Source of the DNA: Candidatus Woesearchaeota archaeon
GTDB taxonomy: Archaea; Nanobdellota; Nanobdellia; Woesearchaeales; JBJKQO01
Assembly: GCA_046705145.1 (NCBI GenBank)
Contig: JBJKQO010000054.1
Coordinates: 8,199 to 72,198, forward strand
Length of the DNA stretch: 64,000 nucleotides
Direction of reading: 5' to 3'
Shown here: piece after piece, positions 9,497 through 62,372 of the stretch
How the letters are laid out: each line of letters begins with the position of its first letter
Numbering within the stretch: position 1 is the stretch's first letter
Translations under genes and position numbers: made by a program
Notes under the pieces: generated by a model
What the model was told of the DNA's origin: nothing
Seen by the model: the letters and a program-made list of their open reading frames with translations, nothing else
Databases searched by the model: none

Positions 9497-10777
9497 TTAT
9501 TTTATTATCCCAAACCCGATCAGTCTCCATCTGTTTCCAAGCCTTCTTGATATGGTGACTCTTGAGCTTTTCTCAGCGCAGACAGGTATCTTCAGGTTGC
9601 ATTCAAACTCGCTTTTTCCAAGCTTCGTGACTACGCCTACTGTCGCAGCTGAATTGACGTTAAGCATGAGGGGCTCTCCCATCTTTATTGCGTCAACTAA
9701 CAGCCCGTCTTTTGATCCTACCATCCTTTCAAGGAGGTGGGTCTCAAGCTTCAGGCTGTGAAGTACTGGAGGAAGCTTTCCTGGAATCCCTACTACTGAT
9801 CCTGTCAGCTTGTCAGACTTGACTACAGAAGGGTCAAGCGTTGTCATCACTGCTATCGATCCTCCCGGGCCTACCTGCTCAACATTTTTGCTGCCTGTCA
9901 TGACGCTTGTGATCTTGCTTTTTATAGGGTACCATACTTTCTTGTTCTGCTCTTCGACGCTGTATCCCGGCCTTATCTCTATCTCATCCCCTACTTTCAG
10001 GATGCCCTGCTTAAGCGATCCTCCTAGGACTCCAGCGACCATGTCGTTTATCTCTGTGCCTGGCTTGTTTATGTCAAAGCTTCTTGCGACAAACATCATC
10101 GGGTCTTTTGACATATCCCTTGATGGTGTAGGTATCGCTTCATTTATGGTCTCGATAAGAAGGTCTATGTTAGCTCCGTGCCTTGCTGATATCGGGACTA
10201 TCGGCGCGTCTTCAAACGGTGTTCCTTTGAGGAATGCTTTTATCGCCTCATAGTTCTTTACTGCCCTCTCTTTTGATACAAGGTCTATCTTATTCTGGAC
10301 TATGACGACGTGCTTGACCCCTATTATCTCAAGGGCCATCAGGTGCTCTCTTGTCTGTGGCTGAGGGCATTCCTCGTTTGCTGCGACAAGAAGCAGCGCT
10401 CCGTCCATTATCGTAGCTCCTGCAAGCATGGTTGCCATCAGGCTTTCGTGGCCTGGCGCATCGACAAAACTGACTTTTCTCACTGGCTCTGAAGCCTCGT
10501 TGCATTCTGGACACTTGTCAAGGACTGTGTACTTGTTGCATTTAGGGCATCTCCTGAACACTGCATCAGCATATCCTAGCCTTATGGTTATGCCTCTTTT
10601 AAGCTCTTCAGAATGCGTGTCTGTCCATTTTCCTGAAAGCTTTTCAGTAAGCGTGGTCTTGCCGTGGTCTACATGGCCTACCAGGCCTATGTTTATCTCA
10701 GGCTGGCTGTCTTTGCCTATCTCCCCTTTTTTAGGAGGTTTAGCCTTGCTTTCGGTTTTTGGTTCTTTTTTAGCCAT
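9497..10777 (-). CDS. eif2g: Translation initiation factor 2 gamma subunit (aIF2-gamma)
   Basis: GHVDHGKT, RGITI, DAPGHE and NKID motifs, Zn knuckle CPKC...CPEC, C-terminal RWRLIG. Confidence 0.98.
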   Translation of the reverse strand: MAKKEPKTESKAKPPKKGEIGKDSQPEINIGLVGHVDHGKTTLTEKLSGKWTDTHSEELKRGITIRLGYADAVFRRCPKCNKYTVLDKCPECNEASEPVRKVSFVDAPGHESLMATMLAGATIMDGALLLVAANEECPQPQTREHLMALEIIGVKHVVIVQNKIDLVSKERAVKNYEAIKAFLKGTPFEDAPIVPISARHGANIDLLIETINEAIPTPSRDMSKDPMMFVARSFDINKPGTEINDMVAGVLGGSLKQGILKVGDEIEIRPGYSVEEQNKKVWYPIKSKITSVMTGSKNVEQVGPGGSIAVMTTLDPSVVKSDKLTGSVVGIPGKLPPVLHSLKLETHLLERMVGSKDGLLVDAIKMGEPLMLNVNSAATVGVVTKLGKSEFECNLKIPVCAEKSSRVTISRRLGNRWRLIGFGIIK

Positions 10778-45126: not shown

Positions 45127-45285
45127 AAACAACTGTAAATTAAACACGATAAAATGTTATAAAAACCTTGACAAAAGAAGATTCACTCCAAAGTCGCTAT
45201 CATCTATGGATTCTATTAAGTTAACCTTATAAAAGAAAAAGGGTTTCTTCCTGTTAAAAAGGTGATTTCTGTAAGGTATTACAAG

Positions 45286-46281: not shown

Positions 46282-46404
46282 GCTAGTTGTCTCAAGTTTC
46301 TGGTGTGGAGCGCTGACACATATCCCTACTGAACCTACGATTAAAAACGAAAGGTTTAAATAGTCTAATTCTTTACTACTATATAAGGGTGAATTAGTTA
46401 TCAG

Positions 46405-47415: not shown

Positions 47416-47472
47416 TCAAAATCCTCTAAAGTAACGATATTTTTATAAACCTAAAAATAACCCTGAAAGGAT

Positions 47473-48477: not shown

Positions 48478-48478
48478 A

Positions 48479-50381: not shown

Positions 50382-50426
50382 AAGTTCCCCAAAACAAGGA
50401 TAGTATTAAAAGGTTATGGAAAAGGA

Positions 50427-50662
50427 GGCTTTTGTCCAAAAAGTCCTACTTCGCTGACTTCACGCGGAAAATATGTTTCCGCTGGGTCACACAAAGCTTC
50501 GCTTTGGTGACTAACCCTATACTTGATGTATATGAACATAGTCAGCTCCGTCGGGCCATGTGTTTGGCAAAGCCAAACGCCAGCAAATCTATTTGCGCTG
50601 CCTTGATTTGCATTCGCAAATCAACGCAAAACAAGGCACCGACGAACTTTTTGGACAAAGCC
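50427..50662. mobile_element. Modular MITE-like palindromic element, copy 3
   Basis: Inverted repeat GGCTTT(T)GTCCAAAAAGT; flanks GGAAAAGGA/TGAAAAGTA (7/9); blocks A 50439-50458, B 50541-50560, C 50635-50652. Confidence 0.82.
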
Positions 50663-50711
50663 TGAAAAGTATCACAGTTCCCAAACGTTTTTATAATCCT
50701 TCCATTCTTTT

Positions 50712-51569
50712 GTGTGTATGAAACTCAATCCGTTCATGTCTGTGATAATAGGAGCTACTATTGGCGGCTTGGGCGGCGTGTTCATAAAGATGTTGGGGCT
50801 GCCTGCGACGACAATCACTTTCTTCAGGCTGGCTGTTCCTGTCTTGCTGCTGTCCTTATACCTTAGCTGGAAGAAGACAAAGATCTTCAGGGGAGATTAC
50901 AAGATAATGCTTTTTGCATCCTTGCTCAATGCAGCCAGGATGTTCCTGTACATAATTGCGTACTTGTACACGACGATCGCAAACGCGGTGATCCTTCTTT
51001 TCACTTATCCTATATTTGCGACAATATTTGGCATTTTCATACTTAAGGAAAAGGTCACGAAAAAAAATATCATTTTGCTTGCCCTTGCTTTCTCTGGCAT
51101 CATCTTCATGTATCTTAACAAGGAGATAAGCATGCAGAACAAGGATTTCATAGGCATGGCAGCTATGCTTGTTTCAGCTATCCTTGTCGCACTGATGTTT
51201 GTCATACTTAAGAAAGGGCGGGAGACCTATTCAAAAGCAGAGACCATATTTTTTCAGAATCTGGTTGGAGCGGTGATCTTTCTTCCGTTCATCTTCATCA
51301 ACAGGCCATTGCCTTCTCCTGCACAGATAAGCGTGGGTTTCAGCTATGGGCTGGTTGTGGGGCTTGTCGGGTTCATATTCCTGTTTTACGCGCTTAAGAG
51401 GATGAAGATGGCTGAGTATTCCCTGTTTGCGTATTGGGAGATAGTAGCTGCGATAGTGTTCAGCATAATATTCTTTAAGGAAATCATCACCTGGAACATG
51501 ATAGTTGGAGGAGCCCTTATAATCGTGCCTGGACTGCTGCTTAAGATAAGTGAGGAAAGGAAGAAGTGA
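50712..51569 (+). CDS. DMT/EamA family transporter
   Basis: Two EamA repeats, about 10 TM helices. ATG likely 50718. Confidence 0.92.
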   Translation: MCMKLNPFMSVIIGATIGGLGGVFIKMLGLPATTITFFRLAVPVLLLSLYLSWKKTKIFRGDYKIMLFASLLNAARMFLYIIAYLYTTIANAVILLFTYPIFATIFGIFILKEKVTKKNIILLALAFSGIIFMYLNKEISMQNKDFIGMAAMLVSAILVALMFVILKKGRETYSKAETIFFQNLVGAVIFLPFIFINRPLPSPAQISVGFSYGLVVGLVGFIFLFYALKRMKMAEYSLFAYWEIVAAIVFSIIFFKEIITWNMIVGGALIIVPGLLLKISEERKK

Positions 51570-51586
51570 GTCCGTCTTCTTAAAGA

Positions 51587-51785
51587 GGCTTTTGTCCAAA
51601 AAGTGCGTCGGTGCCGTGTATGCCATAGTATGCCTGAAGGGCATACATGGCATGGCCCGACGTAGCTGACAGGGCTTGTATACGCAAGTATACTCACAAG
51701 TTTGTCTCACAAACTTTTGAGTCCGCCAAACCCTAGTTTGGCGACACTGACATTGTCAGCGAAGTAGGACTTTTTGGGCAAAGCA
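51587..51785. mobile_element. Modular MITE-like palindromic element, copy 4
   Basis: Inverted repeat GCTTTTGTCCAAAAAGT/ACTTTTTGGGCAAAGC; flanks TCTTAAAGA/TCTGAAAGA (8/9); blocks C' about 51599-51615, B' 51651-51670, A' 51755-51774. Confidence 0.85.
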
Positions 51786-51830
51786 TCTGAAAGAAATAGG
51801 TTTATATAATATTGTTCTTCTTTTCATGTC

Positions 51831-52274
51831 ATGGCAGACAATTCACTGGATAGATATTCCAAACCTATAAGACAGGAGGACACAAGGCTTTCGACTGTGT
51901 TCTGGCTCAATCCGAGGGACTCAAAGAAAGGCAGGCTTTTCATCCCCCTGTTTGATGAGAGGTACCCTCTTAAGTTTCGCGCAAGGTTTGTTTATGTATC
52001 AAAATTTCTTGAAAAGGATAATGCTGCAGGAAACCATTACCATAAGAAGAAAGAGGAAGTGCTTGTCCCACTACAGGGGAAGTTTGATTTTTTCCTAGAA
52101 GACATAAACACAAAAGAGAAAGAAGTGTTCTCTCTTGGCTCGGATGATAACAAGGCAGTATACATCAGGACTGGAGTGTCCCACAAGATAGTCTCAAAGG
52201 ATAAGACAGGGATACTTATCGTTCTTGCATCAAGCCCCAGCAGCACGGATGACGAGATAGAATATGATTTGTGA
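51831..52274 (+). CDS. WxcM/FdtA-like cupin (nucleotide-sugar isomerase family)
   Basis: GNHYH..K.E.L..LQG and G..H cupin motifs. Confidence 0.75.
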   Translation: MADNSLDRYSKPIRQEDTRLSTVFWLNPRDSKKGRLFIPLFDERYPLKFRARFVYVSKFLEKDNAAGNHYHKKKEEVLVPLQGKFDFFLEDINTKEKEVFSLGSDDNKAVYIRTGVSHKIVSKDKTGILIVLASSPSSTDDEIEYDL

Positions 52275-52294
52275 TATTCTTACTATATTATGAC

Positions 52295-52453
52295 ACTGTT
52301 GAAAGTCTCGCTTGCGCTCGGGTAGCATCGTGCTCGCTTGTGATTCTTTATCATTCTAGGCTGACTTCCCCGTAAGGGACGCCCCCCACGTCAGCCTGAA
52401 TACTAAATCAAAAAGAAGCTCGCAAAATTGATCCTACCTTCACTTTCAACAGT
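52295..52453. repeat. Intergenic hairpin element with terminal inverted repeats
   Basis: ACTGTTGAAAGT/ACTTTCAACAGT (52295-52306/52442-52453); internal AGGCTGAC/GTCAGCCT stem; GC core 19/23 identical to 54692-54714 in the opposite orientation. Confidence 0.7.
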
Positions 52454-52516
52454 ACCTGCCATATTACGATAATTTTATAAACAAAGTAAATTTTAGGTGA
52501 CTCCAGAGGGGTAATT

Positions 52517-54637
52517 ATGGTTGGAAAAAAAGACGTGTTTGATATAGTTAATCAGTCTTCTGAGAAGGTCTATCTTGACACCTTAAAAAGGCTTGACACT
52601 GCAGTAAAGGCATATGGAGAGGAAAAAGAGCTTTCTTTTCCGCAGACCGAGTTTGAGCTTCCGGTGGTTTTCTGCCTTTACAAGGAGAAGATAAACAAGC
52701 TAGGGCAGCTTGTTACAGAGCTCAAGAAAAGGGGGTTTAAGAAAGGCGCAGAAGAAGATGCTGACACGCTTATCTTTAACAGCCTTACTGCGGCTATCTG
52801 CATCGAGATAGAGAAGGCGCTTGAGCTTCTTGAAGGGAAAAAGGATGATAACACATCCGGATTTATCCACGATGTCACGTTAAGGGAGCTTGGCGTGCAT
52901 CTTGTCGATGAGACCATAACCGGGATAGGCATACTTATCGGTAAGGCAAAGGATCCTTCTGCTGTGAATGAGCAGCTGGTAGAGATGCAGGAAAACGGCA
53001 TACTCACGCTTGTCTGCGGAGAACTGGCAGGTCAGCTGAAAGACACGGCAAAGATAGGCATGCAATACAGGACGATCATCCTAGGAGAGGATGAGGCTTC
53101 TATCATATTTGCTGTCAACCTTGCGCTAAGGGCTGCTCTTACTTTCGGAGACAAGAAGAGGGGGCAGGCGCAGGATATCGTGAGTTATGTGAATGCAAGG
53201 ATAAAGGCTTTCATAATAGCTGTTGGCCTTCCAAAAGAGACAACTCTCAGCCTTGCAGGCGCGGCACTTGCTCTTGGCATCCCTATAATTTCAGACCAGA
53301 ATCTTCCTCAGATAGACGGGCTTCTTTATCCTGTTAAGACAGATGAGCTTGTGAAAAAGGCATTTGAGCTAAAGAAGATCAAGACCCGTGCTAAAAAGAT
53401 CGACCTGCCTATAAGGTACGGCTTCATATACACTGGAGAAAGGATAAGGAAAGGCGAGTACCAGATGGAAGGCGGTGGGACAAAGTCACCTGGGTTCCTT
53501 CTTGTAAAAAAAGCTGGCCTTGATGAGATAAAAGATCATGATATCACTGTCATAGGGAAGGATATTGATGGGATTGAGGAAGGAGGGGTTCTCCCTCTTG
53601 GTTTTTACATACAGCTTGCCGGAGAGAAGATGCTTGAGGATTTCGAGTCGATAATCGAAGGCAAGATGGAGGATTTCATAAACCAGGGTGAGGGTGTCTG
53701 GCAGGTTGGGAAGAGGACTTTCACCTGGACCAGGATAAGTAAGGAGGCTTTCAAGAAAGGATTTAGGCTCAGGCACCTTGGGGAGATCATCTATTCGAAC
53801 CTTCATGAGGAGTACGGGCAGATAGTAGACAAGGTTTCTATTAAGATCGTGACTGATGAGTCAAAGGTTAATGAGCTTTTAACTGAGGCAAGATCAAAAT
53901 ATGAGAAAAGGGACAAGAGGATGAAAGGCATGACTGATGAGAGCGTTGATACTTTTTATACCTGCCTCTTGTGCCAGAGCTTTGCGCAGGACCATGTCTG
54001 CATCGTGTCTCCTGAAAGGGTAGGGCTTTGCGGTGCTGTAAGCTGGCTTGATGCAAAGACCGGAAACCAGATAAGCCCAAGCGGAGGGAACCAGCCTATA
54101 AGATTAGGTAATCAGACTGATGATGACAAGAGGGTCGGGCACTGGAACGAGATAGACAGGGCGATCGAAAGGGATTCTCATGGCGTGTTAAAAAGGGTGA
54201 ACATGTACAGCATCATGGAAGATCCTATGACAAGCTGCGGCTGTTTTGAGTGCATCGCAGCGATCCTTCCTGAGGCAAACGGCATCATTCTTGTCAACCG
54301 CGAGTTTGAAGGCATGACTCCGACAGGCATGAAGTTCACGACGCTTGCAGGGACTATAAGCGGAGGCCATCAGGTGCCAGGGTTTATGGGTGTCAGCAGG
54401 GCTTATGTCTCAAGCAAAAAGTTCATCCTCACAGAAGGCGGCATGAAAAGGGTGGTCTGGATGACAAGCGCGCTGAAGAAGTACCTTTCGGGGAAGATCG
54501 AGTCAAAAGAAAGCGAGATAGACCCTGCACTTATTGACATGATCGCTGATGAGAACTCCGCATCCACCCCCGAGCAGGTGATAGAGTACATAACTAAGAA
54601 GGACCATCCTGTGCTGAAGATGTCAAGCTTGATTTAA
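52517..54637 (+). CDS. acsB: Acetyl-CoA synthase (ACS), bacterial-type AcsB with N-terminal domain
   Basis: A-cluster ligand motifs CLLCQSFA..HVC...PER.GLCG and PMTSCGCFE; 706 aa with an N-terminal FPQTEFELP domain. Confidence 0.95.
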   Translation: MVGKKDVFDIVNQSSEKVYLDTLKRLDTAVKAYGEEKELSFPQTEFELPVVFCLYKEKINKLGQLVTELKKRGFKKGAEEDADTLIFNSLTAAICIEIEKALELLEGKKDDNTSGFIHDVTLRELGVHLVDETITGIGILIGKAKDPSAVNEQLVEMQENGILTLVCGELAGQLKDTAKIGMQYRTIILGEDEASIIFAVNLALRAALTFGDKKRGQAQDIVSYVNARIKAFIIAVGLPKETTLSLAGAALALGIPIISDQNLPQIDGLLYPVKTDELVKKAFELKKIKTRAKKIDLPIRYGFIYTGERIRKGEYQMEGGGTKSPGFLLVKKAGLDEIKDHDITVIGKDIDGIEEGGVLPLGFYIQLAGEKMLEDFESIIEGKMEDFINQGEGVWQVGKRTFTWTRISKEAFKKGFRLRHLGEIIYSNLHEEYGQIVDKVSIKIVTDESKVNELLTEARSKYEKRDKRMKGMTDESVDTFYTCLLCQSFAQDHVCIVSPERVGLCGAVSWLDAKTGNQISPSGGNQPIRLGNQTDDDKRVGHWNEIDRAIERDSHGVLKRVNMYSIMEDPMTSCGCFECIAAILPEANGIILVNREFEGMTPTGMKFTTLAGTISGGHQVPGFMGVSRAYVSSKKFILTEGGMKRVVWMTSALKKYLSGKIESKESEIDPALIDMIADENSASTPEQVIEYITKKDHPVLKMSSLI

Positions 54638-54763
54638 TGCTTTAGTGTCCTAAGGTGAAAATCCTTGCGCTAGTATATCAAGCGCGTAGACGGGGGTCGC
54701 CCCCTACGGGGAGGCCGCGCCTTCACAATCCAATCAAGGATTTTCAAGACACTAAAGCATTAA
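54634..54763. mobile_element. MITE-like long inverted-repeat element between acsB and acsD
   Basis: Perfect 16-bp IR TTAATGCTTTAGTGTC (54634-54649/54748-54763), second IR TGAAAATCCTTG/CAAGGATTTTCA, GC-rich core hairpin. Confidence 0.75.
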
Positions 54764-54790
54764 TCCTAAAAACAAATATCACAGATCAAA

Positions 54791-55660
54791 ATGCAGTTTC
54801 CAAAAGAGAGTTATCCGGGGAAGATAAGGGAGATAGATGCAGGAGGAAAAAGCATAGGTGGAGAAGCTGCTTTTCCGTTTCTTGACTTTGATGGGAAGAC
54901 AAGCAGGCCGCTTCTTGGCCTTGAGGTCTTCATAACCCCTCCTGAAAACGAGCTGTCGATAAGGGAATGGGGGCCTGTCTCTTCAGATTGTGCTGCCTGG
55001 GCGAAGGCTGCAGCAGAAAAAGCTGACATCATCTGTCTTGTAGTGAAAGAGGGTGATGATGAAGGGAAAGTCATTGCTGCATTGAAAGGTGTTCTTTCTT
55101 CTGTCAGTGTTCCTGTGATGGTCTCTTTTCCTGAGACTGAAAATTCTGTCTCGCTTATGCAGGCCTGCGCAAAGGAAGCGTCTGGGATGAAGAGAAGGAT
55201 AATGATCGCGATGGCAAAAGAGGAGAATTACAAGAAGGTCGGAGCACTGAGTCTCGTGTATAATCATGTCATAATTGCGCAGACACCCATGGATGTGAAC
55301 CTCATGAAGCAGCTTAACATACTTCTTTCTGAGATGGGCGTGAAAAAAGAGAACATAGTTATGGATCCTCTTTCAGCGGGCCTCGGCTACGGCCTTGAGT
55401 ACACTTACTCAACGATCGAAAGGCTGAAGATCGACGCGCTGAAAGGAGATGACGGGGTGGCGCAGCCTATCATCGCTTACGCATCAAAAGCATGGGATGC
55501 GAGGGAAACTTTTGATGAGAGCAAGGAAGTCGGAGACATAAGCAGGAGAGGCAAGGATTGGGAGGCAGCAACAGCTTTAAGCTTTCTTTGCGCCGGAGCA
55601 AACATCATAATGATCAGGAATCCTGAAGTGTTGGAGAGAGTAAGATGCCATCTGCAATAG
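54791..55660 (+). CDS. acsD: Corrinoid iron-sulfur protein small subunit (AcsD/CdhD)
   Basis: IGGE.AFPF, A..P.D.NL.KQLN, MDP...LGYGLEY.Y and AW...E motifs. Confidence 0.94.
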   Translation: MQFPKESYPGKIREIDAGGKSIGGEAAFPFLDFDGKTSRPLLGLEVFITPPENELSIREWGPVSSDCAAWAKAAAEKADIICLVVKEGDDEGKVIAALKGVLSSVSVPVMVSFPETENSVSLMQACAKEASGMKRRIMIAMAKEENYKKVGALSLVYNHVIIAQTPMDVNLMKQLNILLSEMGVKKENIVMDPLSAGLGYGLEYTYSTIERLKIDALKGDDGVAQPIIAYASKAWDARETFDESKEVGDISRRGKDWEAATALSFLCAGANIIMIRNPEVLERVRCHLQ

Positions 55661-56934
55661 AGATATACAAGGAGCTTCCTAAGACCAACTGCAAGGAGTG
55701 CGGCTATCAGACCTGCTTAGCTTTTGCGATGGCTCTTTCGCAGCAAAAAGAAAGCATAAGCAAATGCCCTTATGTGAAAGAAGATGTCAAGCAGAAGCTT
55801 CTTGATTCTACAAGGCCTCCGATAAGAGAGGTGATTTTCGGAAACTTAAAGCTTGGAAACGAGACTGTGATGTTTCGGCATGAGAACAAGTTCGTAAACA
55901 GGACAGCGATAGGCATCCTTATCTCAGGGGTGATGGAAGAAAAAGAGATAGAGAGAAGGATAAAGATCCTGGAAAGCTTTGATTATGAGAGGGTAGGGGA
56001 GCAGATAAGGCTTGATTTTGCTGCAGTTGAAGCAGATGATGAGAACGTGCTCAAGACGCTTTTGGATAAGGTAAGCAGGATCAAGAACATGCCTGTAATG
56101 ATAATATCAGACGCCAATACTCTTGAGAGGACAGCAGATGTCTGGCAACCTAAAAGGCCTGTCTTAAGGTTCAAGGATGGTGATCTTGGCAGGGCTTGCG
56201 AGCTCGCCAAAAAGACTGGCGCCTTGCTTGTGGTCGGGGCGCAGGAGATAGATGATCTTCTTTCTTCTTGTGAAAAGGCTCAGTCTGCAGGGGTGAAGGA
56301 CATACTGCTTGAGGTTGTCTCAAGCACGACAGGCGACCTTGTCAGGAAGCACACTATCATCAGGAGGCTTGCTGTCAAGGATAAGGATATAAAAGCAGGA
56401 TATCCTATGGTCAGTTTTCCGAAGAGCTTTGAAGAGGCTTGTATCAGCATGATAAAATATTCTTCGGCTATCGTGCTTGACAAGTTTGAGGATCAGCAGC
56501 TTTATCCTCTGGTCACGTTAAGGCAAAACATATTCACTGATCCAAAGCGGCCGCTTCAGATAGACCCTGGAGTGTATGAGATAAACAATGCGAAGGAAGG
56601 AGCCTTGCTTCTCACCACAAACTTTTCGCTCACTTACTTCACTGTCTCAAGCGACTGCGAGTCTGCAAGCGTTCCGTGCAGGCTGCTTGTTGTCGACACT
56701 GAAGGCCAGTCTGTGCTGACTGCTTTTGCTTCAGACAAGATAAATGCTGAAAAGATCGCCAAGTTCATCAAGGAAAAAGATATCGAGCACGTGGCAAATA
56801 CCAAGACCCTTGTGATACCTGGTTTCTTGGCGCACCTGAAGGGAGATCTGGAAGAAAAGAGCGGCTTTAAGGTGATTGTCGGGCCAAAGAACTCATCTGA
56901 CATCAAGAAGTTCCTAAACGAGATGAAAAAATGA
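55645..56934 (+). CDS. acsC: Corrinoid iron-sulfur protein large subunit (AcsC/CdhE)
   Basis: IYKELPKTNCKECG..TCLAFA...CPY [4Fe-4S] motif, ETV.FRH, TTNFSLTYF and SVLTA. Confidence 0.96.
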   Translation: MPSAIEIYKELPKTNCKECGYQTCLAFAMALSQQKESISKCPYVKEDVKQKLLDSTRPPIREVIFGNLKLGNETVMFRHENKFVNRTAIGILISGVMEEKEIERRIKILESFDYERVGEQIRLDFAAVEADDENVLKTLLDKVSRIKNMPVMIISDANTLERTADVWQPKRPVLRFKDGDLGRACELAKKTGALLVVGAQEIDDLLSSCEKAQSAGVKDILLEVVSSTTGDLVRKHTIIRRLAVKDKDIKAGYPMVSFPKSFEEACISMIKYSSAIVLDKFEDQQLYPLVTLRQNIFTDPKRPLQIDPGVYEINNAKEGALLLTTNFSLTYFTVSSDCESASVPCRLLVVDTEGQSVLTAFASDKINAEKIAKFIKEKDIEHVANTKTLVIPGFLAHLKGDLEEKSGFKVIVGPKNSSDIKKFLNEMKK

Positions 56935-56973
56935 TGCTTTAGTGTCACAATTCATATTTACCCAAATAAAAAA

Positions 56974-58521
56974 ATGGCAAAGATAATATTCATAGTCGGA
57001 AAAGAGGAAAAAGAAGCACAATCAAAGGAAGGTGAAAGCCTTCTTGACATCGCAACAAGGGTTGGAATCAAGATAAATGCGCAGTGCGGAGGAAAAGGCA
57101 TATGTGGCAAGTGCACTGTAAGGATAGACGGCAGGATGGTCCTTGCATGCACGACATTTCCTGAAAATGATGTAACGGCCTATGTTCCAGAAACGCAAGG
57201 GAAGATACTTGGCGCACAAAAGAAGTCTCCTGAAAAGATAGATCCTATAGGAAAAGGTATTGGGCTTGCTGTTGATATAGGCACTACAACTGTTGTCGCT
57301 GCTCTTGTTGATATGGACAAAGGAGCTGTCATCGACAGCGCATCCGACTACAACAGGCAGATCAATCTTGGTGCAGATGTGCTTTCGCGGATGCTTCACG
57401 CAAAAAAAGTTGGCGGGCTTGATAAGTTAAGAGATCTTGTTGTCGCAACGATCAATGACCTTATTTCGGCGCTTCTTGATAAGAACAGCCAAGTATCAAA
57501 GGATGATATCAGGACTGCTGTGATAACAGGAAACACTATAATGACTTACCTTTTCTTCGGAAAAGATCCGAGTTCTATCAGGACTGAAGCAGTTGTCGAG
57601 ACATCTTTTGATGAGGTAAGCGGAAAACAAAGCATGCTTGGCATAAGTGATGATGCGAGGGTCATATGCTTTGATGCCATATCAGGTTATGTTGGGGGAG
57701 ATATTGTCGCAGATATAATATGCACGGGCCTTGACAGTGAAGAGAAGAACACTTTGCTTATAGATGTCGGGACAAACGGGGAAGTGGTGCTTGGGAACAG
57801 GGAATGGATGATGTGTGCAAGCAGTTCTGCCGGGCCTTCATTTGAAGGTGGTGAGGTAAAGTGCGGGATGCGGGCTACAGGCGGGGCCATAGACTCTGTG
57901 AGGGTGAAAAGCGAGACAGAAGTAACGTATACCACGATAGATGGAGGCGAGGCTTTGGGGATCTGCGGGACAGGGCTAATAGACCTTATTGCAGAGCTGT
58001 TTGATAAAGGCATGATAGACAGGAGCGGAAACTTTGATGCCGCAAAGCTAAAGGTTAACAATTTGCATCTGGGGCAGGGGTATGACAGCCAGGACCCTAG
58101 GTTTTACTTGACAAAAGATGTGTTCATATCAGAGAGGGATATCAAGAACATAATAAGGAGCAAGGCTGCGATATTCGCTTCCCAGGCAATCCTTCTTGAG
58201 AACAGCAACCTGAAATTTGATGATGTTGACAGGCTTGTAATCGCAGGAGGATTTGGCAACTTCCTTGATATTGACCACACAATAAGGATAGGGATGTTTC
58301 CGAACATCACAAGGGACAAGGTGGTCTTTGCAGGAAACACTGCTATAAGCGGTGCTGTGTTCCTGCTGCTTGACAAGGCAAATCTTGAGAGGATGAAAAG
58401 GATCTCAAAAAGCGCAACATACATAGACCTGAACAGCGATACAGGATTCATGAAGCAGTACACTGCTGCGATGTTTCTGCCGCATACTGACACAGATATG
58501 TTTGATGTGAAAAACCAATAG
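56974..58521 (+). CDS. acsV: Corrinoid reductive activator (RACE/AcsV, ASKHA domain, DUF4445)
   Basis: N-terminal 2Fe-2S CGGKGICGKC...LAC; DIGTTT, G.DVLSR, GGDI, DVGTNGE, GICGTG and AGGFG. Confidence 0.93.
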   Translation: MAKIIFIVGKEEKEAQSKEGESLLDIATRVGIKINAQCGGKGICGKCTVRIDGRMVLACTTFPENDVTAYVPETQGKILGAQKKSPEKIDPIGKGIGLAVDIGTTTVVAALVDMDKGAVIDSASDYNRQINLGADVLSRMLHAKKVGGLDKLRDLVVATINDLISALLDKNSQVSKDDIRTAVITGNTIMTYLFFGKDPSSIRTEAVVETSFDEVSGKQSMLGISDDARVICFDAISGYVGGDIVADIICTGLDSEEKNTLLIDVGTNGEVVLGNREWMMCASSSAGPSFEGGEVKCGMRATGGAIDSVRVKSETEVTYTTIDGGEALGICGTGLIDLIAELFDKGMIDRSGNFDAAKLKVNNLHLGQGYDSQDPRFYLTKDVFISERDIKNIIRSKAAIFASQAILLENSNLKFDDVDRLVIAGGFGNFLDIDHTIRIGMFPNITRDKVVFAGNTAISGAVFLLLDKANLERMKRISKSATYIDLNSDTGFMKQYTAAMFLPHTDTDMFDVKNQ

Positions 58522-58541
58522 ATCAAAGAAGGTAACAAAAA

Positions 58542-59588
58542 ATGAAATCAAAACTAGGATACTGCAAGACTTTTCCGATAGGGTCATTTCCGCAGGGTAC
58601 AGCAGCAGAGGCTATGAAGCTTTGCATGGAATCATTTGACATACCGTGCTGGCCGCAGCTTCCAAAGCTTGGCTTCAATGAGAACATGTATGCCCAGTTC
58701 AATGAGGGGATCAGCCCGCTTGTGTTAAAGGACGATAAGATATACGCTGACACTACAGACGATGAAAGGATAGCAGAGCAGGTAGACAAGATACTTAATG
58801 ACTTCATGCAGGGAGAAACTAAAGACTATGCGATATCAGAGGAGTTCTCAAAGGGACTGTATCATTTTTTTGGAGAAAAAGATGCGCTTTCAAAAAGAGA
58901 GTTCATAAAAGGGCAGATCACAGGCCCGATAAGCTTCTGTCTTCAGGTGACAGACCAGGACAAGAAGCCTATACTTTACGACGAGCTTCTGTTTGAAGGT
59001 GTTACGCAGGCTCTTGCGCTAAAGGCGCAGTGGATGCTTGATGAGATGAAGAAGATCAACAAGAACGTGATAATCGCTGCAGATGAGCCTTTCCTTTCAA
59101 GCTTCGGATCAGCGTATATCAGCCTGACAAAAGAGCAGGTGATAGAAAGCGCTAATACTGTCTTTGGAAGGCTGGACTGTATCAGGTCCATGCACTGCTG
59201 CGCGAATACCAACTGGAGCATCCCTATGCAGACAGATGTTGACATAATATGCTTTGACGCTTATGAATATGCGAAGAATCTTCTGCTTTATCCCCAGGAG
59301 CTAAAAAAGTTTATTGATGACGGAAAGTTCCTTGGCTGGGGGATAGTGCCAAGCAGCAATGATCTTATCGCAAAAGAGGATGCACAGAGCCTGTTCAAAA
59401 GATTCAACGGGCTTGTGAAAGAATTTGCAGCAAAAGGCATAGACCAAGACAAGATGCTGAGGCAGTCTGTGCTGACTCCAAGCTGCGGCGTGGGATCACT
59501 GACAGAAGAAGCAAGCATCAAGGTGTGCAGGATGATCAAGGAGCTATCAAAAAAGATAAGAAATGAATACTCTCTTGAAGGTGATTAG
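58542..59588 (+). CDS. Core (single-barrel) methionine synthase, MesB/MesC-like
   Basis: IGSFP, WPQLP, KGQITGP, DEP, HCC Zn motif, FDAY, WGIVP and TPSCG; 348 aa, lacking the folate-binding N-terminal barrel of full MetE. Confidence 0.88.
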   Translation: MKSKLGYCKTFPIGSFPQGTAAEAMKLCMESFDIPCWPQLPKLGFNENMYAQFNEGISPLVLKDDKIYADTTDDERIAEQVDKILNDFMQGETKDYAISEEFSKGLYHFFGEKDALSKREFIKGQITGPISFCLQVTDQDKKPILYDELLFEGVTQALALKAQWMLDEMKKINKNVIIAADEPFLSSFGSAYISLTKEQVIESANTVFGRLDCIRSMHCCANTNWSIPMQTDVDIICFDAYEYAKNLLLYPQELKKFIDDGKFLGWGIVPSSNDLIAKEDAQSLFKRFNGLVKEFAAKGIDQDKMLRQSVLTPSCGVGSLTEEASIKVCRMIKELSKKIRNEYSLEGD

Positions 59589-59589
59589 A

Positions 59590-60321
59590 TTGGCAAAGAT
59601 AATATCAATAACCGGAAAAGGGGGCACTGGCAAGAGCACGATATCTGCTCTTCTTGCAATCACACTTTCAAAAAAAGGCAGGGTACTTGTCGTCGATGCT
59701 GACCCAAACTCAAATGTGAACGAGCTTTTGGGCCTGCCTGTCAAGGCGACAGTCGGTGGAGTGAGGGAAAGCGCGCTAAAAGAGCAGGGTATCACAAAGC
59801 AGGAATATATCAGGTTCCACATAGAGGATGCGATAAGCGAAGGGGATAATATAGACCTTATCGTGATGGGAAGGCCTGAAGGAAGGGGCTGCTACTGCTT
59901 TGCAAATTCCATGATAAGGGACTATACTGACACGATAATGAATGATTATGATTTTGTGATAATAGACAACGAAGCGGGGCTGGAGCATCTTAGCAGGAGG
60001 ACTACTGTCAGGTCTGATTTCGTGCTTATAGTGAGCGACTCGTTTCGTGCGACTGAATGCGCAGCAAGGATAATAGACCTTGCAAAAGAGGTGGAGATAG
60101 ATGTCGGAAAGGTTTTCCTGATACTAAACAAAGCAGCAAAGCAGGCTTCTGAAAAGACAGAAAATCTGATAAAAGAAAAAGGCATAGAAGTGATAGCAAG
60201 GATACCTTCTGATCCAAGGATAACAGAAGCTGACGAGAACTCAGTCCCTCTAAGCAAGATAGGAAAGGAATCAGACATGGTCAGGGCTGTTGAAGGTATT
60301 GTTGAGAGGATGGTCGGTTAG
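59590..60321 (+). CDS. cooC: CooC/AcsF nickel-insertion ATPase
   Basis: GKGGTGKS, DADPNSN, GCYC and DNEAGLEHLSR. TTG start at 59590 after a GGTGA RBS (ORF track 59563). Confidence 0.93.
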   Translation: MAKIISITGKGGTGKSTISALLAITLSKKGRVLVVDADPNSNVNELLGLPVKATVGGVRESALKEQGITKQEYIRFHIEDAISEGDNIDLIVMGRPEGRGCYCFANSMIRDYTDTIMNDYDFVIIDNEAGLEHLSRRTTVRSDFVLIVSDSFRATECAARIIDLAKEVEIDVGKVFLILNKAAKQASEKTENLIKEKGIEVIARIPSDPRITEADENSVPLSKIGKESDMVRAVEGIVERMVG

Positions 60322-60338
60322 GTAAAGAAGTAATATCC

Positions 60339-62372
60339 TCACTCATCCCCTTTTCCCGCAGTCTTTCTTTTGAACCTTTTGGAGGTGAGCCTGTGGAAGA
60401 ATGGGTACACTGCCTTGAACAGGTCTGTCTGGCTGACCACTCCCACCATCTTCTTTCCCTGTACTACGACGATGTGCCTGTATTTTTTCTGGAGCATCTC
60501 GTCGCCGGCGTCAAGGATGCTGATGTCAGATGATATCGTAAAGACAGGCCTGCTCATAAGCTTTCCTATGGGTGTAGAGACAAGCTTTTCTGGCGCGCTT
60601 ACAAGGCAGTGAAGGAAATCCTTCTCTGTGAATATGCCTATCGGTTCTCCTGACTTGACAACAACAATGCTGCTTATGCCTGATTCTCTCATAAGAGACA
60701 GGGCTTCCTCTATCGGCGTGTTTTCTTCTGCCTTGACGACTGTCCTTTTCATGACAGAATTCAGGGAAGGTATAGATTCAGGTTTTACTCCTTTTGACAG
60801 ATTGATGCTAAGCATGTGGTCAAAGACATGGGTCTGGGTAAGTATGCCGTCTATATCTCCATGGTTCAAGATGGGTATCTTCCTCACTTTCCCTGATTTC
60901 ATAAGCCGCGCTGCCTCGTATACTGCAGCGTCGACTTCCACAATTAGAGGTGATTCGTCCATGACATCTGCAACTTTTAGTTTCCTGTACTTGCTCGTGT
61001 CATCTATCTTTCTTAGGATCGTTTTTTCTGAAAGCGTGCCTTTTATCTTTCCTGCTTCAAGGACGCATGCGTAATTGAAGTCCTGGTCATCCATAACAGG
61101 AAGTATCTCTGAAAGCAGCGCTTCAGGGGATGTGGCAGGCACTTCTTCTGACATTATTTCCTGTACAGGTGAAAGAAGCGCGCGTTCGATCTTTTTTTCA
61201 GTATCCTTTGTTCCAAGATATTCCATGGTCTTGCCAAAAGCGAAAAGCGCCCCTATGAGGAGAGATATTATAGCGACAGGAATCCCTACGATCCATATCA
61301 GTTTCCTTAGTGATATCCTCTTGTAAAACGCTTCCTTGTAGGTTAAGGATCCCTGCTTTTGCTGCTCTGAGGATGATGTTATGTTCTCGGGCGTGTTATT
61401 TTCTTTTTGTCCAAGAAGGTCTTCGTTTCCTGATGTGAAATTTCCTGAGCAGTTTGAGCAGTTTCCATCAACTTTTTTCAGGTTTATGTTTGATACGTTT
61501 CCTATCCCAGAATTTAGTTGGTCTGGGTCTCCTGCACCCTGAGATGCTCCTGCGCCTGATTGGTTGCTTGTGCTTTTTGGATTAGTTGTGGTTTCTTTTT
61601 TCTTGTTTGGGTCTGGCTTCAGGTATTTTAGCCACTTGTCAACTATCCCTTTGGCTGATGAGTTGCCTCCATCATCACCTTCTGCTTCCCTGCTGTCATG
61701 ATCAGATCCTAAAGATCTCTCTGAAGGACCTGATGAATCTCCTTCGCCTGAAGACGTGTCTGATGATTCCTGCTGCTGCGAGCCTGATGATCCTCCAGCG
61801 GCGCCTGTTCCTGAAGATGATCCTGCAGAGCTTCCCCCGGAATCATCCCCTCCAGACCCTCCCTCGCCAAAATCTGATCCTCCACCACCCGGTGGTCCTG
61901 TACCTTTTGATGGGCCTATGCCTATTTTTGAAAGCCAGTCAATAAGTTTTGAGTTGAAGCTGCTAAACACCCCTCCTGATACCTGGATGACGAGATTTCT
62001 TGATGCCTGGACTGTCCTTCCTGGAGAAGCGTCGATGATGACTGAATCAAAATCTGCTACTTTCAGCTCTATCGGCGACCCTTCCGGAGCCATTATGGTG
62101 CCCTGGTTGAAAAAGTAGTATCCTTCAAGGGTCTGGTCGCCTAATGAGTCTGCCTGGCTTTTTGTCAGTGTAAAGGCTGTGCTTGTATGCTCGCTTCCTT
62201 CCCCATCAACCCATCTTGCTGTCACTGCAAAGCTGGGCTTGGGGTTTGAGTCCTGGTCCACTACCTTTCCGTAAACTGTAGTGGGAGGTTGTGGTGGCTG
62301 GGCTAATACCAGCAAAGGTATGATAAGGATACAGATAAGTGATAAGAAAGAAAATCTTAGGTTCATTATCAC
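60339..62372 (-). CDS. Single-pass membrane protein with exported N-terminal domain, Gly/Ser linker and cytoplasmic tandem CBS domains
   Basis: Signal peptide; G/S-rich tract; TM helix LIWIVGIPVAIISLLIGALFAFG; four CBS repeats (e.g. GTLSEK.I, GILTQT.V, GIFTEKDF, GVVSQTDL). Confidence 0.85.
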   Translation of the reverse strand: MIMNLRFSFLSLICILIIPLLVLAQPPQPPTTVYGKVVDQDSNPKPSFAVTARWVDGEGSEHTSTAFTLTKSQADSLGDQTLEGYYFFNQGTIMAPEGSPIELKVADFDSVIIDASPGRTVQASRNLVIQVSGGVFSSFNSKLIDWLSKIGIGPSKGTGPPGGGGSDFGEGGSGGDDSGGSSAGSSSGTGAAGGSSGSQQQESSDTSSGEGDSSGPSERSLGSDHDSREAEGDDGGNSSAKGIVDKWLKYLKPDPNKKKETTTNPKSTSNQSGAGASQGAGDPDQLNSGIGNVSNINLKKVDGNCSNCSGNFTSGNEDLLGQKENNTPENITSSSEQQKQGSLTYKEAFYKRISLRKLIWIVGIPVAIISLLIGALFAFGKTMEYLGTKDTEKKIERALLSPVQEIMSEEVPATSPEALLSEILPVMDDQDFNYACVLEAGKIKGTLSEKTILRKIDDTSKYRKLKVADVMDESPLIVEVDAAVYEAARLMKSGKVRKIPILNHGDIDGILTQTHVFDHMLSINLSKGVKPESIPSLNSVMKRTVVKAEENTPIEEALSLMRESGISSIVVVKSGEPIGIFTEKDFLHCLVSAPEKLVSTPIGKLMSRPVFTISSDISILDAGDEMLQKKYRHIVVVQGKKMVGVVSQTDLFKAVYPFFHRLTSKRFKRKTAGKGDE

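What the first reader, a model, noticed from the sequence alone, without database searches (positions are those of the whole stretch)
52517..60321. CODH-less, AcsE-less acetyl-CoA synthase operon wired to a core methionine synthase in a DPANN-like archaeon
Seen: a contiguous same-strand run acsB-acsD-acsC-acsV-mes-cooC, with the six A-cluster Cys, the CFeSP Fe-S Cys and the Mes Zn ligands present. No CODH, AcsE, MetF or folate/H4MPT genes occur in the window. Established: ACS is reversible. Dehalococcoides uses an incomplete Wood-Ljungdahl pathway to split acetyl-CoA for methionine methyl groups and releases CO. MesB/MesC-type synthases use methyl-corrinoids rather than folate and are proposed to draw on CFeSP. 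Inference: a minimal folate-free route, acetyl-CoA to methyl-CFeSP plus CO, then homocysteine to methionine, with AcsV reactivating the corrinoid and CooC loading Ni. This is unexpected in a lineage with reduced biosynthesis, and CO export could feed a host or partner. I cannot verify whether it has been reported in DPANN.
Basis: partly seen in the sequence, partly recalled or inferred. Interest (0 to 1): 0.9.

Follow-up and report, generated by a model that had tools for sequence, protein, structure and literature searches.

The report
CODH-less acetyl-CoA-to-methionine operon, DPANN archaeon
A tiny-genome (Woesearchaeota-like) archaeon carries a six-gene operon, of bacterial type, that most likely splits acetyl-CoA to get the methyl group for re-making methionine; the chemistry is already proposed for Dehalococcoides, and what seems new is the host lineage and the compact operon.

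Summary
Window 52517-60321 (+) encodes acsB, acsD, acsC, a RACo/AcsV activator, a MesB-type core methionine synthase and a CooC/AcsF-type ATPase, tightly packed. All predicted metal ligands are present. No CODH, AcsE, MetF, MetH or folate gene lies anywhere in the 64 kb. The contig is archaeal: its eIF2-gamma is about 70% identical to Woesearchaeota/Nanoarchaeota proteins only.

The "mes" gene has no Pfam, NCBIfam or PDB sequence hit. Its model folds as a MetE barrel, it keeps the HCDC zinc site of MesB, and it is about 40% identical to Dehalococcoidia "methionine synthase".

The same CODH-less cassette recurs in at least five other metagenomic lineages. One sits next to archaeal ribosomal genes and has RACo fused to MesB. 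Two are flanked by SAM synthetase and SAH hydrolase. A related cassette in an NCBI "archaeon" MAG still carries cooS.

I found no report of it in DPANN. Absence of CODH from the whole genome, and the fate of CO, remain untested.

Verdict: a real feature, a new member of a known kind, of moderate interest.

The parts
52517..54637 (+). acsB: bacterial-type acetyl-CoA synthase/decarbonylase (706 aa) that keeps the N-terminal domain
   Evidence: NF040764 at 818 bits (cut-off 800); PF18537, PF03598 and PF19436. A-cluster Cys C483, C486, C495, C505 and C574-G-C576. Best database hits are 48% identical or less. Groups with L004 and P0244/L173 at 88% NJ bootstrap.
54791..55660 (+). acsD: small subunit of the corrinoid iron-sulfur protein (289 aa)
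   Evidence: PF03599 CdhD at 105 bits. NF003376 at 246 bits, below its cut-off of 280. Overlaps acsC by 16 nt.
55645..56934 (+). acsC: large subunit of the corrinoid iron-sulfur protein (429 aa)
   Evidence: NF003195 at 453 bits (cut-off 306); PF04060 and PF03599. [4Fe-4S] Cys C16, C19, C24, C41.
56974..58521 (+). acsV/RACo: ATP-dependent reductive activator of the corrinoid protein (515 aa)
   Evidence: PF00111, PF17651 and PF14574. The NF040756 AcsV model is matched only over positions 210-631 (446 bits, cut-off 800). [2Fe-2S] Cys C38, C44, C47, C59.
58542..59588 (+). mesB-type core methionine synthase (348 aa; corrinoid-dependent, no folate domain)
   Evidence: No Pfam, NCBIfam or PDB sequence hit. 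1729 homologues; those that carry a source name are mostly called 'methionine synthase', chiefly from Dehalococcoidia/Chloroflexota, at about 40% identity. H218/C220/D239/C315, S15 and D181 match MesB residues 214/216/235/311, 15 and 177. AF2 pLDDT 91. The top 20 Foldseek matches are all cobalamin-independent methionine synthases or MetE-family chains, including MesD 3RPD.
59563..60321 (+). cooC/acsF-type nickel-insertion ATPase (252 aa)
   Evidence: MinD/ParA-family P-loop (PF01656, PF13614). GKGGTGKS and C110-x-C112. Always follows mesB in the related cassettes. Overlaps mesB by 26 nt.
52275..52516 (+). Upstream non-coding leader and promoter region of the operon
   Evidence: Read directly. 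It holds a roughly 170-nt element bounded by ACTGTTGAAAGT...ACTTTCAACAGT, then a TTTATAA box and a GGTGA before the ATG. No Rfam match at E <= 1.
51587..51775 (.). Copy of a genome-specific structured intergenic repeat, 0.8 kb upstream of acsB (used as evidence for contig integrity)
   Evidence: Same family at 8400-8524, 26646-26767 and 50427-50663. Logan contigs of SRR31309759 break inside these repeats.
9497..10777 (-). eIF2-gamma: host marker that places the contig in Woesearchaeota/Nanoarchaeota (DPANN)
   Evidence: PF00009 and PF09173. All named best hits are Woesearchaeota or Nanoarchaeota archaeon, at about 67-73% identity.

Best explanation
This is a self-contained operon of bacterial type that supplies methyl groups to the methionine/SAM cycle of a Woesearchaeota-like DPANN archaeon.

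Proposed steps:
1. AcsB, with its Ni-Ni-[4Fe-4S] A-cluster loaded by the CooC/AcsF-type ATPase, runs in the cleavage direction: acetyl-CoA + Co(I)-CFeSP -> CH3-Co(III)-CFeSP + CO + CoA.
2. The MesB-type core methionine synthase activates homocysteine on its Zn site (His218, Cys220, Asp239, Cys315) and takes the methyl group directly from CH3-CFeSP (AcsC/AcsD). This gives methionine and Co(I).
3. RACo/AcsV re-reduces any Co(II) that forms, using ATP.
4. No CODH, AcsE, MetF or pterin carrier is needed, and CO leaves as a by-product.
5. Homocysteine most likely comes from SAH recycling, so the net effect is to move the acetyl methyl group into SAM-dependent methylation.

Shown here: gene identities, ligands, operon compactness, archaeal host, recurrence of the cassette, and its linkage to MAT and AHCY in relatives.

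Inferred: the direction of the ACS reaction, direct CFeSP-to-MesB transfer, CO release, and absence of CODH from the rest of the genome.
For: - Six tightly packed or overlapping genes with complete ligand sets.
- The MesB call rests on four lines. The HCDC zinc site and the Ser15/Asp181 homocysteine contacts sit at the positions Price et al. give for DET0516. The AF2 model has pLDDT 91 and its best structural matches are MetE and MesD. phmmer gives 263-268 bits to Dehalococcoidaceae homologues. Homologues are named methionine synthase.
- No CODH, AcsE, MetF or MetH in 64 kb.
- The same CODH-less order (acsB-)acsD-acsC-acsV-mesB-cooC occurs in L004, L170, L002/L089, L174/L175 and L173, and in part in L087, L090 and L172.
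- L002 and L174 bracket the cassette with archaeal-type SAM synthetase and SAH hydrolase, plus a kinase.
- L173 carries acsV and mesB as one 855-aa reading frame.
- In Chloroflexota, mesB is commonly followed by AHCY and sometimes MAT, as reported for cbdbA476/477/481.
- Published support comes from D. mccartyi. Its methionine methyl derives from acetate C2, it lacks MetF, AcsE and CODH, and core-MetE uses methylcobalamin.
- A B12-binding radical SAM gene in the window (42818-44224) suggests corrinoid is available.
Against: - Only one contig is visible, so a monofunctional cooS, or acsE/metF, could lie elsewhere in the genome.
- AcsB keeps the N-terminal domain that docks onto CODH in canonical enzymes.
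- Close bacterial relatives (L005, L036, L041, L045, L058) and the NCBI '[archaeon]' MAG L169 have cooS beside mesB-cooC.
- No MAT, AHCY or homocysteine-supply gene is in this window.
- Direct CFeSP-to-MesB methyl transfer has never been shown biochemically, even in Dehalococcoides.
- No expression data could be obtained.
Confidence: 0.6

Rival explanations
1. This is an ordinary, or nearly ordinary, carbonyl branch. A CODH (cooS or cdhA), and perhaps a methyl branch, is encoded elsewhere in the genome. AcsB/CFeSP then works with CODH to make or oxidise acetyl-CoA, and MesB merely taps the methyl-CFeSP pool, as in acetogens and sulfate reducers that carry MesB.
For: AcsB retains its N-terminal CODH-docking domain. 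Related cassettes carry cooS next to cooC (L005, L036, L041, L045, L058, L169). Most MesB organisms have a full Wood-Ljungdahl pathway. The rest of the genome cannot be seen.
Against: cooS is missing from every one of six independent cassette lineages of this type, although cooC is kept. Wood-Ljungdahl genes are reported lost in DPANN cluster 2 (PMC13473441). Comparative Woesearchaeota genomics does not mention the pathway. The flanks in relatives are methyl-cycle genes, not C1 or energy genes.
Confidence: 0.2
2. The module runs in the reverse direction. The MetE-like enzyme strips a methyl group from a methyl-thioether (methionine, methanethiol or DMS-type compounds) onto CFeSP. ACS then condenses it with environmental or host-derived CO and CoA to make acetyl-CoA.
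For: ACS and corrinoid methyl transfers are reversible in principle. A CODH-less ACS could use exogenous CO. Zn-thiolate methyltransferases for methylthiols exist in methanogens (my own knowledge).
Against: The homocysteine-binding Ser and Asp and the MesB zinc site are conserved. Linkage to MAT and AHCY points to methionine formation. Demethylating methionine to Co(I) is energetically unfavourable (established chemistry, my own knowledge).
Confidence: 0.07
3. Assembly or binning artefact. The cassette is a bacterial fragment wrongly joined to an archaeal contig.
For: All six proteins are of bacterial type. GC is slightly higher (0.46-0.48 against about 0.43) and tetranucleotide correlation with the rest is 0.90, against 0.93-0.96 for most windows of the contig, though the first 8 kb gives only 0.85. 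Logan contigs of the same run break between 50.5 and 53.7 kb, and the stretch 51,703-53,673, which includes the join to acsB, was not recovered in any independent contig I could look up.
Against: The breaks fall inside a repeat family that also lies 1 kb from eIF2-gamma and at 26.7 kb, so both sides carry the same genome-specific repeat. An independent contig (L173) has the closest AcsB directly beside archaeal Rpb7/RpoE, Spt4, S24e, S27ae, L10(P0) and L1. L004 carries an archaeal TIGR01177-type methyltransferase. The Logan contig L001 confirms the join from the cassette into the downstream CBS-domain gene.
Confidence: 0.04
4. Recently acquired, non-functional or decaying horizontal cargo.
For: Bacterial origin. 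Mobile-looking repeats lie upstream. L173 has a frameshifted acsB.
Against: In the window all six ORFs are intact with every ligand present. The cassette is conserved across lineages that are only 40-50% identical, which implies long purifying selection.
Confidence: 0.04

Closest known systems
Dehalococcoides mccartyi incomplete Wood-Ljungdahl pathway plus core-MetE/MesB (cbdbA481/DET0516): Zhuang 2014 as cited in PMC7005905; Deobald 2020, PMC7005905; Price 2021, PMC7857596
   Same: AcsB, AcsCD and a MesB-type synthase without CODH, AcsE or MetF. The proposed flow is acetyl-CoA -> CH3-CoFeSP + CO -> methionine. The HCDC zinc site is the same. About 40% identity and 263-268 bits to Dehalococcoidaceae homologues.
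   Different: The host is a DPANN archaeon, not a Chloroflexota bacterium. All parts, including the RACo activator and the Ni-insertion ATPase, sit in one six-gene operon. In D. mccartyi, mesB lies with MAT and AHCY, and in the Chloroflexota loci examined here no acs genes lie within 10 kb of mesB. Genome-wide absence of CODH is shown for Dehalococcoides but not here.
CODH-containing mesB cassette acsD-acsC-acsV-mesB-cooC-cooS-acsB (L169, NCBI GCA_043823195.1, labelled '[archaeon]'), and the bacterial mesB-cooC-cooS(-acsB) loci L005, L036, L041, L045, L058
   Same: Homologous proteins (37-46% identity) in the same local order acsD-acsC-acsV-mesB-cooC. The AcsB of L169 falls in the same loose group as the window's AcsB.
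   Different: These loci keep cooS between cooC and acsB. In the window cooS is absent and acsB leads the operon. L169 is embedded in Met/Thr biosynthesis genes and also has MetH.
mesB-acsC-acsD operons of some methanogens (Price 2021, Fig 3B)
   Same: MesB is encoded next to the two CFeSP subunits in an archaeon, which implies direct methyl hand-over.
   Different: Methanogens have a full archaeal CODH/ACS (Cdh) and an H4MPT methyl branch (my own knowledge). Here AcsB is the bacterial 700-aa type, and the operon brings its own AcsB, RACo and CooC but no CODH.
Canonical acetogen acs operon (Moorella/Carboxydothermus type: acsA/cooS, acsB, acsC, acsD, acsE, cooC/acsF, acsV/RACo); my own knowledge
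   Same: The same AcsB, AcsC, AcsD, RACo and CooC families, with the same cofactor ligands.
   Different: It lacks acsA/cooS, and it has a MesB methyl acceptor where the methyl-THF:CFeSP methyltransferase AcsE would be. The predicted direction is cleavage, not synthesis.

Membership tests
MesB core methionine synthase (Price 2021; core-MetE of Deobald 2020) | Single catalytic domain of about 390 aa or less, with no folate-binding Meth_synt_1 domain | tested here: met
   348 aa; no Meth_synt_1 or Meth_synt_2 hit and no other domain.
MesB core methionine synthase (Price 2021; core-MetE of Deobald 2020) | MetE-like (beta/alpha)8 catalytic fold | tested here: met
   AF2 pLDDT 91, pTM 0.90. The top 20 Foldseek PDB matches are all cobalamin-independent methionine synthases or MetE-family chains: MetE entries (best TMq 0.64, 4l6h), MesD 3rpd, and the putative 1ypx and 2nq5.
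MesB core methionine synthase (Price 2021; core-MetE of Deobald 2020) | Zinc ligands His-Cys-Asp-Cys (214, 216, 235, 311 in DET0516) | tested here: met
   H218, C220, D239, C315. The first three are invariant in 171 homologues and the last is present in 168 of 171.
MesB core methionine synthase (Price 2021; core-MetE of Deobald 2020) | Homocysteine-binding Ser15 and Asp177 equivalents | tested here: met
   IGS15FPQ and D181-E-P; D181 is invariant in 171 sequences.
MesB core methionine synthase (Price 2021; core-MetE of Deobald 2020) | At least 173 bits by phmmer to DET0516 | tested here: inconclusive
As a proxy, the window protein scores 263-268 bits against four 'uncultured Dehalococcoidaceae' homologues.
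MesB core methionine synthase (Price 2021; core-MetE of Deobald 2020) | Genome also encodes AcsC and AcsD | tested here: met
   Both lie in the same operon.
MesB core methionine synthase (Price 2021; core-MetE of Deobald 2020) | Methylcorrinoid:homocysteine methyltransferase activity | not testable with these tools
   Needs an enzyme assay.
Bacterial-type acetyl-CoA synthase AcsB | Full-length match above the curated cut-off, and the six A-cluster Cys | tested here: met
   NF040764 at 818 bits (cut-off 800) and NF007078 at 809.5 (cut-off 809). C483, C486, C495, C505, C574, C576.
Corrinoid iron-sulfur protein AcsC/AcsD | Large subunit with an N-terminal 4-Cys [4Fe-4S] domain and a CdhD-like TIM barrel; small subunit CdhD-like | tested here: met
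   AcsC: NF003195 at 453 bits (cut-off 306) with 4 Cys. AcsD passes Pfam PF03599 but falls below the NCBIfam subfamily cut-offs (246 against 280).
RACo/AcsV reductive activator | N-terminal [2Fe-2S] ferredoxin, middle domain and ASKHA ATPase domain | tested here: met
   PF00111, PF17651 and PF14574 with 4 Cys. It is shorter than the AcsV model: NF040756 is matched from position 210 on, at 446 bits, below the cut-off of 800.
CooC/AcsF nickel-insertion ATPase | MinD-type deviant P-loop plus a Cys-x-Cys metal motif | tested here: met
   GKGGTGKS and C110-Y-C112. No CooC- or AcsF-specific model matched; there were only generic MinD/ParA hits.
Dehalococcoides-type incomplete Wood-Ljungdahl pathway | Genome-wide absence of CODH, AcsE and MetF | not testable with these tools
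   Absent from the operon and from the 64-kb window. The rest of the genome could not be reached: the GTDB scan did not recover this genome and no sequencing runs are served.
DPANN (Woesearchaeota / GTDB Nanoarchaeota) host | Informational genes closest to that lineage, on the same contig | tested here: met
   All named best hits of eIF2-gamma are Woesearchaeota or Nanoarchaeota. This is one marker only; no ribosomal-protein tree was made.

The most novel reading that the evidence does not exclude
A horizontally acquired, CODH-less 'methyl-supply module' (AcsB, CFeSP, RACo, MesB, AcsF) is the only source of methyl groups for the SAM cycle in a group of small-genome archaea that have no folate or H4MPT C1 metabolism. 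These cells burn acetyl-CoA for methyl groups and must excrete CO, which a host or neighbour oxidises. That would be a new metabolic dependency, or currency, in DPANN symbioses.
Probability: 0.3. Interest if true: 0.7.

Novelty: new member of a known kind. Interest (0 to 1): 0.55.

Why it matters
DPANN cluster 2 archaea are thought to have lost the Wood-Ljungdahl genes and most biosynthesis (PMC13473441). It is unclear how they keep SAM-dependent methylation running without a C1 carrier. A compact operon of bacterial type that turns acetyl-CoA into the methionine methyl group would give a concrete, testable answer.

It would extend the Dehalococcoides 'incomplete Wood-Ljungdahl' solution across domains. 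It would predict dependence on Ni and corrinoid, and CO release, in these symbionts.

The cassette also offers a minimal six-protein system for testing the long-standing but unproven direct transfer from CFeSP to MesB. The natural RACo-MesB fusion and the MAT/AHCY-flanked versions add support for that link.

Tried and rejected
- Sequence searches of the Mes-like protein found nothing usable. Pfam gave nothing even at E <= 10, NCBIfam gave nothing, and PDB searches by phmmer and by a 16-sequence profile returned only chance-level hits. The family call therefore rests on homologues, ligands and the fold.
The 80 best GTDB loci were all bacterial, at 44% identity or less. This is not proof that GTDB archaea lack the cassette: the NCBI MAG behind L172 was missed.
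- The listing of cluster members gave no organism names for the closest homologues.
- The taxonomy of L002, L174 and L170 could not be settled. The archaeal-type SAM synthetase is not diagnostic because Chloroflexota have it too.
- One close MesB homologue, L005, is bacterial (EF-G) and has cooS.
- A tree of MesB alone does not support a CODH-less clade (19.5% bootstrap). AcsB gives 88% only for window + L004 + P0244, and 47% for the wider group.
- No public run could be listed, so there is no read-level check of the 50-54 kb join and no expression data.
- Rfam found no riboswitch or other RNA upstream of acsB. The promoter and terminator scans were uninformative.
- I considered reading the AcsB N-terminal domain as degenerate. 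It is retained, with only small deletions in some relatives, so I dropped that argument.
- Literature searches for DPANN or Woesearchaeota together with ACS, acsB, CFeSP, MesB or methionine synthase found no report of this cassette.

Full report
**1. The observation**

ORF listing shows six same-strand ORFs at exactly the stated coordinates. The spacings are +153, -16, +39, +20 and -26 nt, so this is an operon-like block.

Pfam and NCBIfam identify five of the six:
- A bacterial-type AcsB of 706 aa: NF040764 at 818 bits against a cut-off of 800, with the N-terminal PF18537 domain.
- AcsD: PF03599.
- AcsC: NF003195 at 453 bits against a cut-off of 306, with an N-terminal Fe-S domain.
- A RACo/AcsV activator: Fer2, Raco_middle and RACo_C_ter.
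- A MinD/ParA-family ATPase.

Reading the translations confirms the ligands:
- AcsB: C483/C486/C495/C505 and C574-G-C576.
- AcsC: C16/C19/C24/C41.
- RACo: C38/C44/C47/C59.
- ATPase: GKGGTGKS and C110-x-C112.

**2. The 'mes' gene**

The fifth ORF (58542-59588) gave no hit in Pfam (even at E <= 10), in NCBIfam, or in the PDB by sequence or by profile.

- It has 1729 homologues. Where a source gives a name it is mostly 'methionine synthase', chiefly from Dehalococcoidia or Chloroflexota, at about 40% identity. The closest relatives are only 43-46% identical.
- Price et al. (PMC7857596) define MesB by the D. mccartyi enzyme DET0516. Its zinc ligands are 214/216/235/311 (His-Cys-Asp-Cys) and its homocysteine contacts are 15/69/177.
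- The window protein has H218, C220, D239, C315, S15 (IGSFPQ) and D181 (DEP). H218, C220, D239 and D181 are invariant in 171 aligned homologues, and C315 is present in 168.
- An AlphaFold model has pLDDT 91 and pTM 0.90. Its top 20 PDB matches are all cobalamin-independent methionine synthases or MetE-family chains: MetE structures, MesD 3RPD, and two putative entries.
- phmmer scores against four Dehalococcoidaceae homologues are 263-268 bits. That is above the 173-bit criterion of Price et al., though only by proxy, because DET0516 itself was not at hand.

I accept it as a MesB-type core methionine synthase.

**3. The host and the integrity of the contig**

The window carries these archaeal markers:
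- eIF2-gamma (9497-10777, minus strand).
- A RadB-like recombinase and TrmB.
- Ribosomal protein S2.
- Two long tRNAs of 90 and 96 nt, probably intron-bearing.

Every named best hit of eIF2-gamma is 'Candidatus Woesearchaeota archaeon' or 'Nanoarchaeota archaeon', at about 67-73% identity. 'DPANN-like' is therefore supported, on one marker.

The cassette has slightly higher GC, and its tetranucleotide correlation with the rest of the window is 0.90. Most other 8-kb windows give 0.93-0.96, though the first 8 kb gives 0.85. This fits an old horizontal acquisition.

Logan contigs of run SRR31309759 reproduce 44657-50465, 50563-51702 and 53674-62024 at 100% identity. The breaks at 50.5 and 51.7 kb fall inside a structured repeat with copies at 50427-50663 and 51587-51775. 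The same repeat occurs at 8400-8524, 1 kb from eIF2-gamma, and at 26646-26767. Both sides of the breaks therefore carry the same genome-specific repeat. The stretch 51,703-53,673, which includes the join to acsB, was not recovered in an independent contig.

Independent contigs support an archaeal home for the cassette. L173 places the AcsB that groups most closely with the window's directly after archaeal Rpb7/RpoE, Spt4, S24e, S27ae, L10(P0) and L1 (88% NJ bootstrap for window + L004 + P0244/L173). L004 carries an archaeal TIGR01177-type methyltransferase. I rate a chimeric join as unlikely, at about 4%.

**4. What is absent**

Pfam scans of essentially all non-overlapping ORFs of 150 aa or more found no CODH, AcsE (Pterin_bind), MetF, MetH, MetE, folate or H4MPT gene in the 64 kb. 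tblastn with two CooS sequences and a MetH fragment gave nothing better than E = 0.2. There is also no MAT or AHCY in the window.

The rest of the genome could not be examined. No sequencing runs are served.

**5. Comparative context**

This is the new evidence.

*The cassette recurs without CODH.* The order acsB-acsD-acsC-acsV-mesB-cooC, at 35-58% protein identity to the window, is found in these loci:
- L004 (Logan SRR22388028).
- L170/L088 (ENA and JGI).
- L002/L089 and L174/L175, which have an AcsB-AcsD fusion.
- L173.
- In part in L087, L090 and L172.

*Two lineages link it to the methyl cycle.* In L002 and L174 the cassette is bracketed by an archaeal-type SAM synthetase upstream. Downstream lie a kinase and S-adenosylhomocysteine hydrolase, and in L174 that hydrolase is itself fused to a kinase domain. 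This is a complete methyl-cycle neighbourhood.

*One lineage fuses two of the genes.* In L173, acsV and mesB form one 855-aa reading frame. This fusion ties MesB to the CFeSP maintenance machinery, although a sequencing error cannot be excluded.

*Relatives that keep CODH.* Several bacterial loci carry mesB-cooC-cooS(-acsB): L005 (which has EF-G), L036, L041, L045 and L058. L169, from an NCBI MAG labelled '[archaeon]', carries acsD-acsC-acsV-mesB-cooC-cooS-acsB among Met/Thr biosynthesis genes and MetH. The CODH-less form therefore looks like a derivative of a cooS-containing cassette. It kept the Ni-insertion ATPase, presumably for the A-cluster.

*Chloroflexota.* Here mesB usually sits with AHCY and sometimes MAT, as Deobald et al. 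describe for cbdbA476/477/481.

*Limits of the phylogenies.* These results are modest. MesB alone does not resolve a CODH-less clade (19.5% bootstrap). The wider AcsB group that includes L002, L170 and L169 has 47%.

**6. Mechanism**

The best-supported reading is the pathway proposed for Dehalococcoides:
1. AcsB cleaves acetyl-CoA, methylating Co(I)-CFeSP and releasing CO and CoA.
2. MesB transfers the methyl group to zinc-activated homocysteine.
3. RACo re-reduces adventitious Co(II), using ATP.
4. The CooC/AcsF-type ATPase matures the Ni site. The AcsF comparison is from my own knowledge.

The MAT and AHCY flanks in relatives suggest that homocysteine comes from SAH. The module would then feed SAM-dependent methylation rather than de novo methionine synthesis.

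Shown: parts, ligands, operon structure, host, recurrence and context. Inferred: reaction direction, direct CFeSP-to-MesB transfer (unproven even in Dehalococcoides), CO release, and genome-wide lack of CODH. Confidence is 0.6.

Rivals:
- A CODH elsewhere, making this an ordinary carbonyl branch (0.2). AcsB keeps its CODH-docking N-terminal domain.
- Reverse operation from methyl-thioethers plus external CO (0.07).
- Assembly artefact (0.04).
- Decaying cargo (0.04). Against this, all ORFs and ligands are intact.

**7. Comparison with what is known, and novelty**

The MesB-CoFeSP link, mesB next to acsCD in methanogens, and the CODH-, AcsE- and MetF-less pathway of Dehalococcoides are all published (PMC7857596, PMC7005905). 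The mechanism is therefore not new.

What I could not find in the literature library is any report of ACS, CFeSP or MesB in Woesearchaeota or other cluster 2 DPANN. A 2026 reconstruction states that Wood-Ljungdahl genes are absent from most modern DPANN except Altiarchaeota and SpSt-1190 (PMC13473441).

The all-in-one six-gene CODH-less operon, the AcsB-AcsD and RACo-MesB fusions, and the MAT-cassette-AHCY arrangement also appear undescribed.

I file it as a new member of a known kind, in an unexpected lineage and acquired from bacteria, with interest 0.55.

Noticed in passing
window 8400-8524, 26646-26767, 50427-50663, 51587-51775: A family of structured intergenic repeats (about 125-240 nt). 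The ends (AAAAAGT...ACTTTTT) and the junction strings (CCTACTTCGCTGAC, GTCAGCTCCGTCGGGCCATG, CATGGCACCGACG) are conserved, while the hairpins between them vary. RNAalifold on the 4 copies finds 35 pairs, 7 of them with compensatory changes. There is no Rfam match. The element could be MITE-like or an unknown structured RNA. Two copies in opposite orientation flank the EamA transporter gene, and short-read (Logan) contigs break inside them.
   Followed up: partly
window about 52300-52470: A second element, bounded by a 12-nt inverted repeat (ACTGTTGAAAGT / ACTTTCAACAGT) with GC-rich internal hairpins, lies in the leader just upstream of acsB. It has no Rfam hit. It could be a mobile-element scar or a regulatory RNA.
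   Followed up: partly
L173:9620-12187 (JGI 3300038380, Ga0434945_004639): acsV (RACo) and mesB are read as a single 855-aa ORF. In the same contig acsB is split by a frameshift (621 + 104 aa). The cassette sits directly after archaeal rpoE, spt4, S24e, S27ae, L10 and L1.
   Followed up: partly
L002:2840-13954 and L174:7171-19098: The CODH-less cassette, here with AcsB fused to AcsD (936-938 aa), is bracketed by archaeal-type SAM synthetase and SAH hydrolase. In L002 a PfkB kinase lies between them. In L174 there is an APH-like kinase and a P-loop-kinase-AHCY fusion (631 aa). The taxonomy of these contigs is unresolved.
   Followed up: partly
L169 (NCBI GCA_043823195.1, JBDRAZ010000017.1): A MAG labelled '[archaeon]' carries acsD-acsC-acsV-mesB-cooC-cooS-acsB. 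It is embedded between metH and homoserine dehydrogenase on one side and asd, thrB, thrC and serA on the other. This is a CODH-containing version of the cassette inside an amino-acid biosynthesis island.
   Followed up: partly
window 9021-9494 (+): An ORF with a clear lipoprotein signal peptidase II (Peptidase_A8, E = 4e-33) domain. As far as I know this is a typically bacterial function, so it is unexpected on a Woesearchaeota-like contig.
   Followed up: no
window 1262-7384 (+): A giant 2040-aa protein with an S8 subtilase domain, an I9 inhibitor domain and FG-GAP repeats. It is probably a cell-surface protease or adhesin.
   Followed up: no
window 265-354, 421-453 and 1045-1140: Two long tRNA genes (90 and 96 nt), probably intron-bearing. 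ARAGORN and Rfam each find a different one. A 33-nt, 91%-identical partial duplicate of the tRNA-Phe region lies 121 nt away.
   Followed up: no
window 60339-62372 (-) and 62369-63970 (-): Downstream and convergent to the operon is a 677-aa protein. It has a signal or TM segment, a long Gly/Ser/Asp-rich low-complexity region, a second TM segment and four CBS domains. It is followed by a Cys-rich 533-aa protein with no family match.
   Followed up: no
window 16443-17702, 20417-21895, 22814-24307, 42818-44224: Four radical-SAM enzymes in 64 kb, one of them with a B12-binding domain. This fits an organism that uses SAM heavily and has access to corrinoids.
   Followed up: no
loci L008-L164 (Chloroflexota mesB loci): In many Chloroflexota genomes mesB is followed within a few kb by AHCY, and in some also by an archaeal-type SAM synthetase or a PfkB kinase. 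This extends the cbdbA476/477/481 arrangement noted by Deobald et al.
   Followed up: partly
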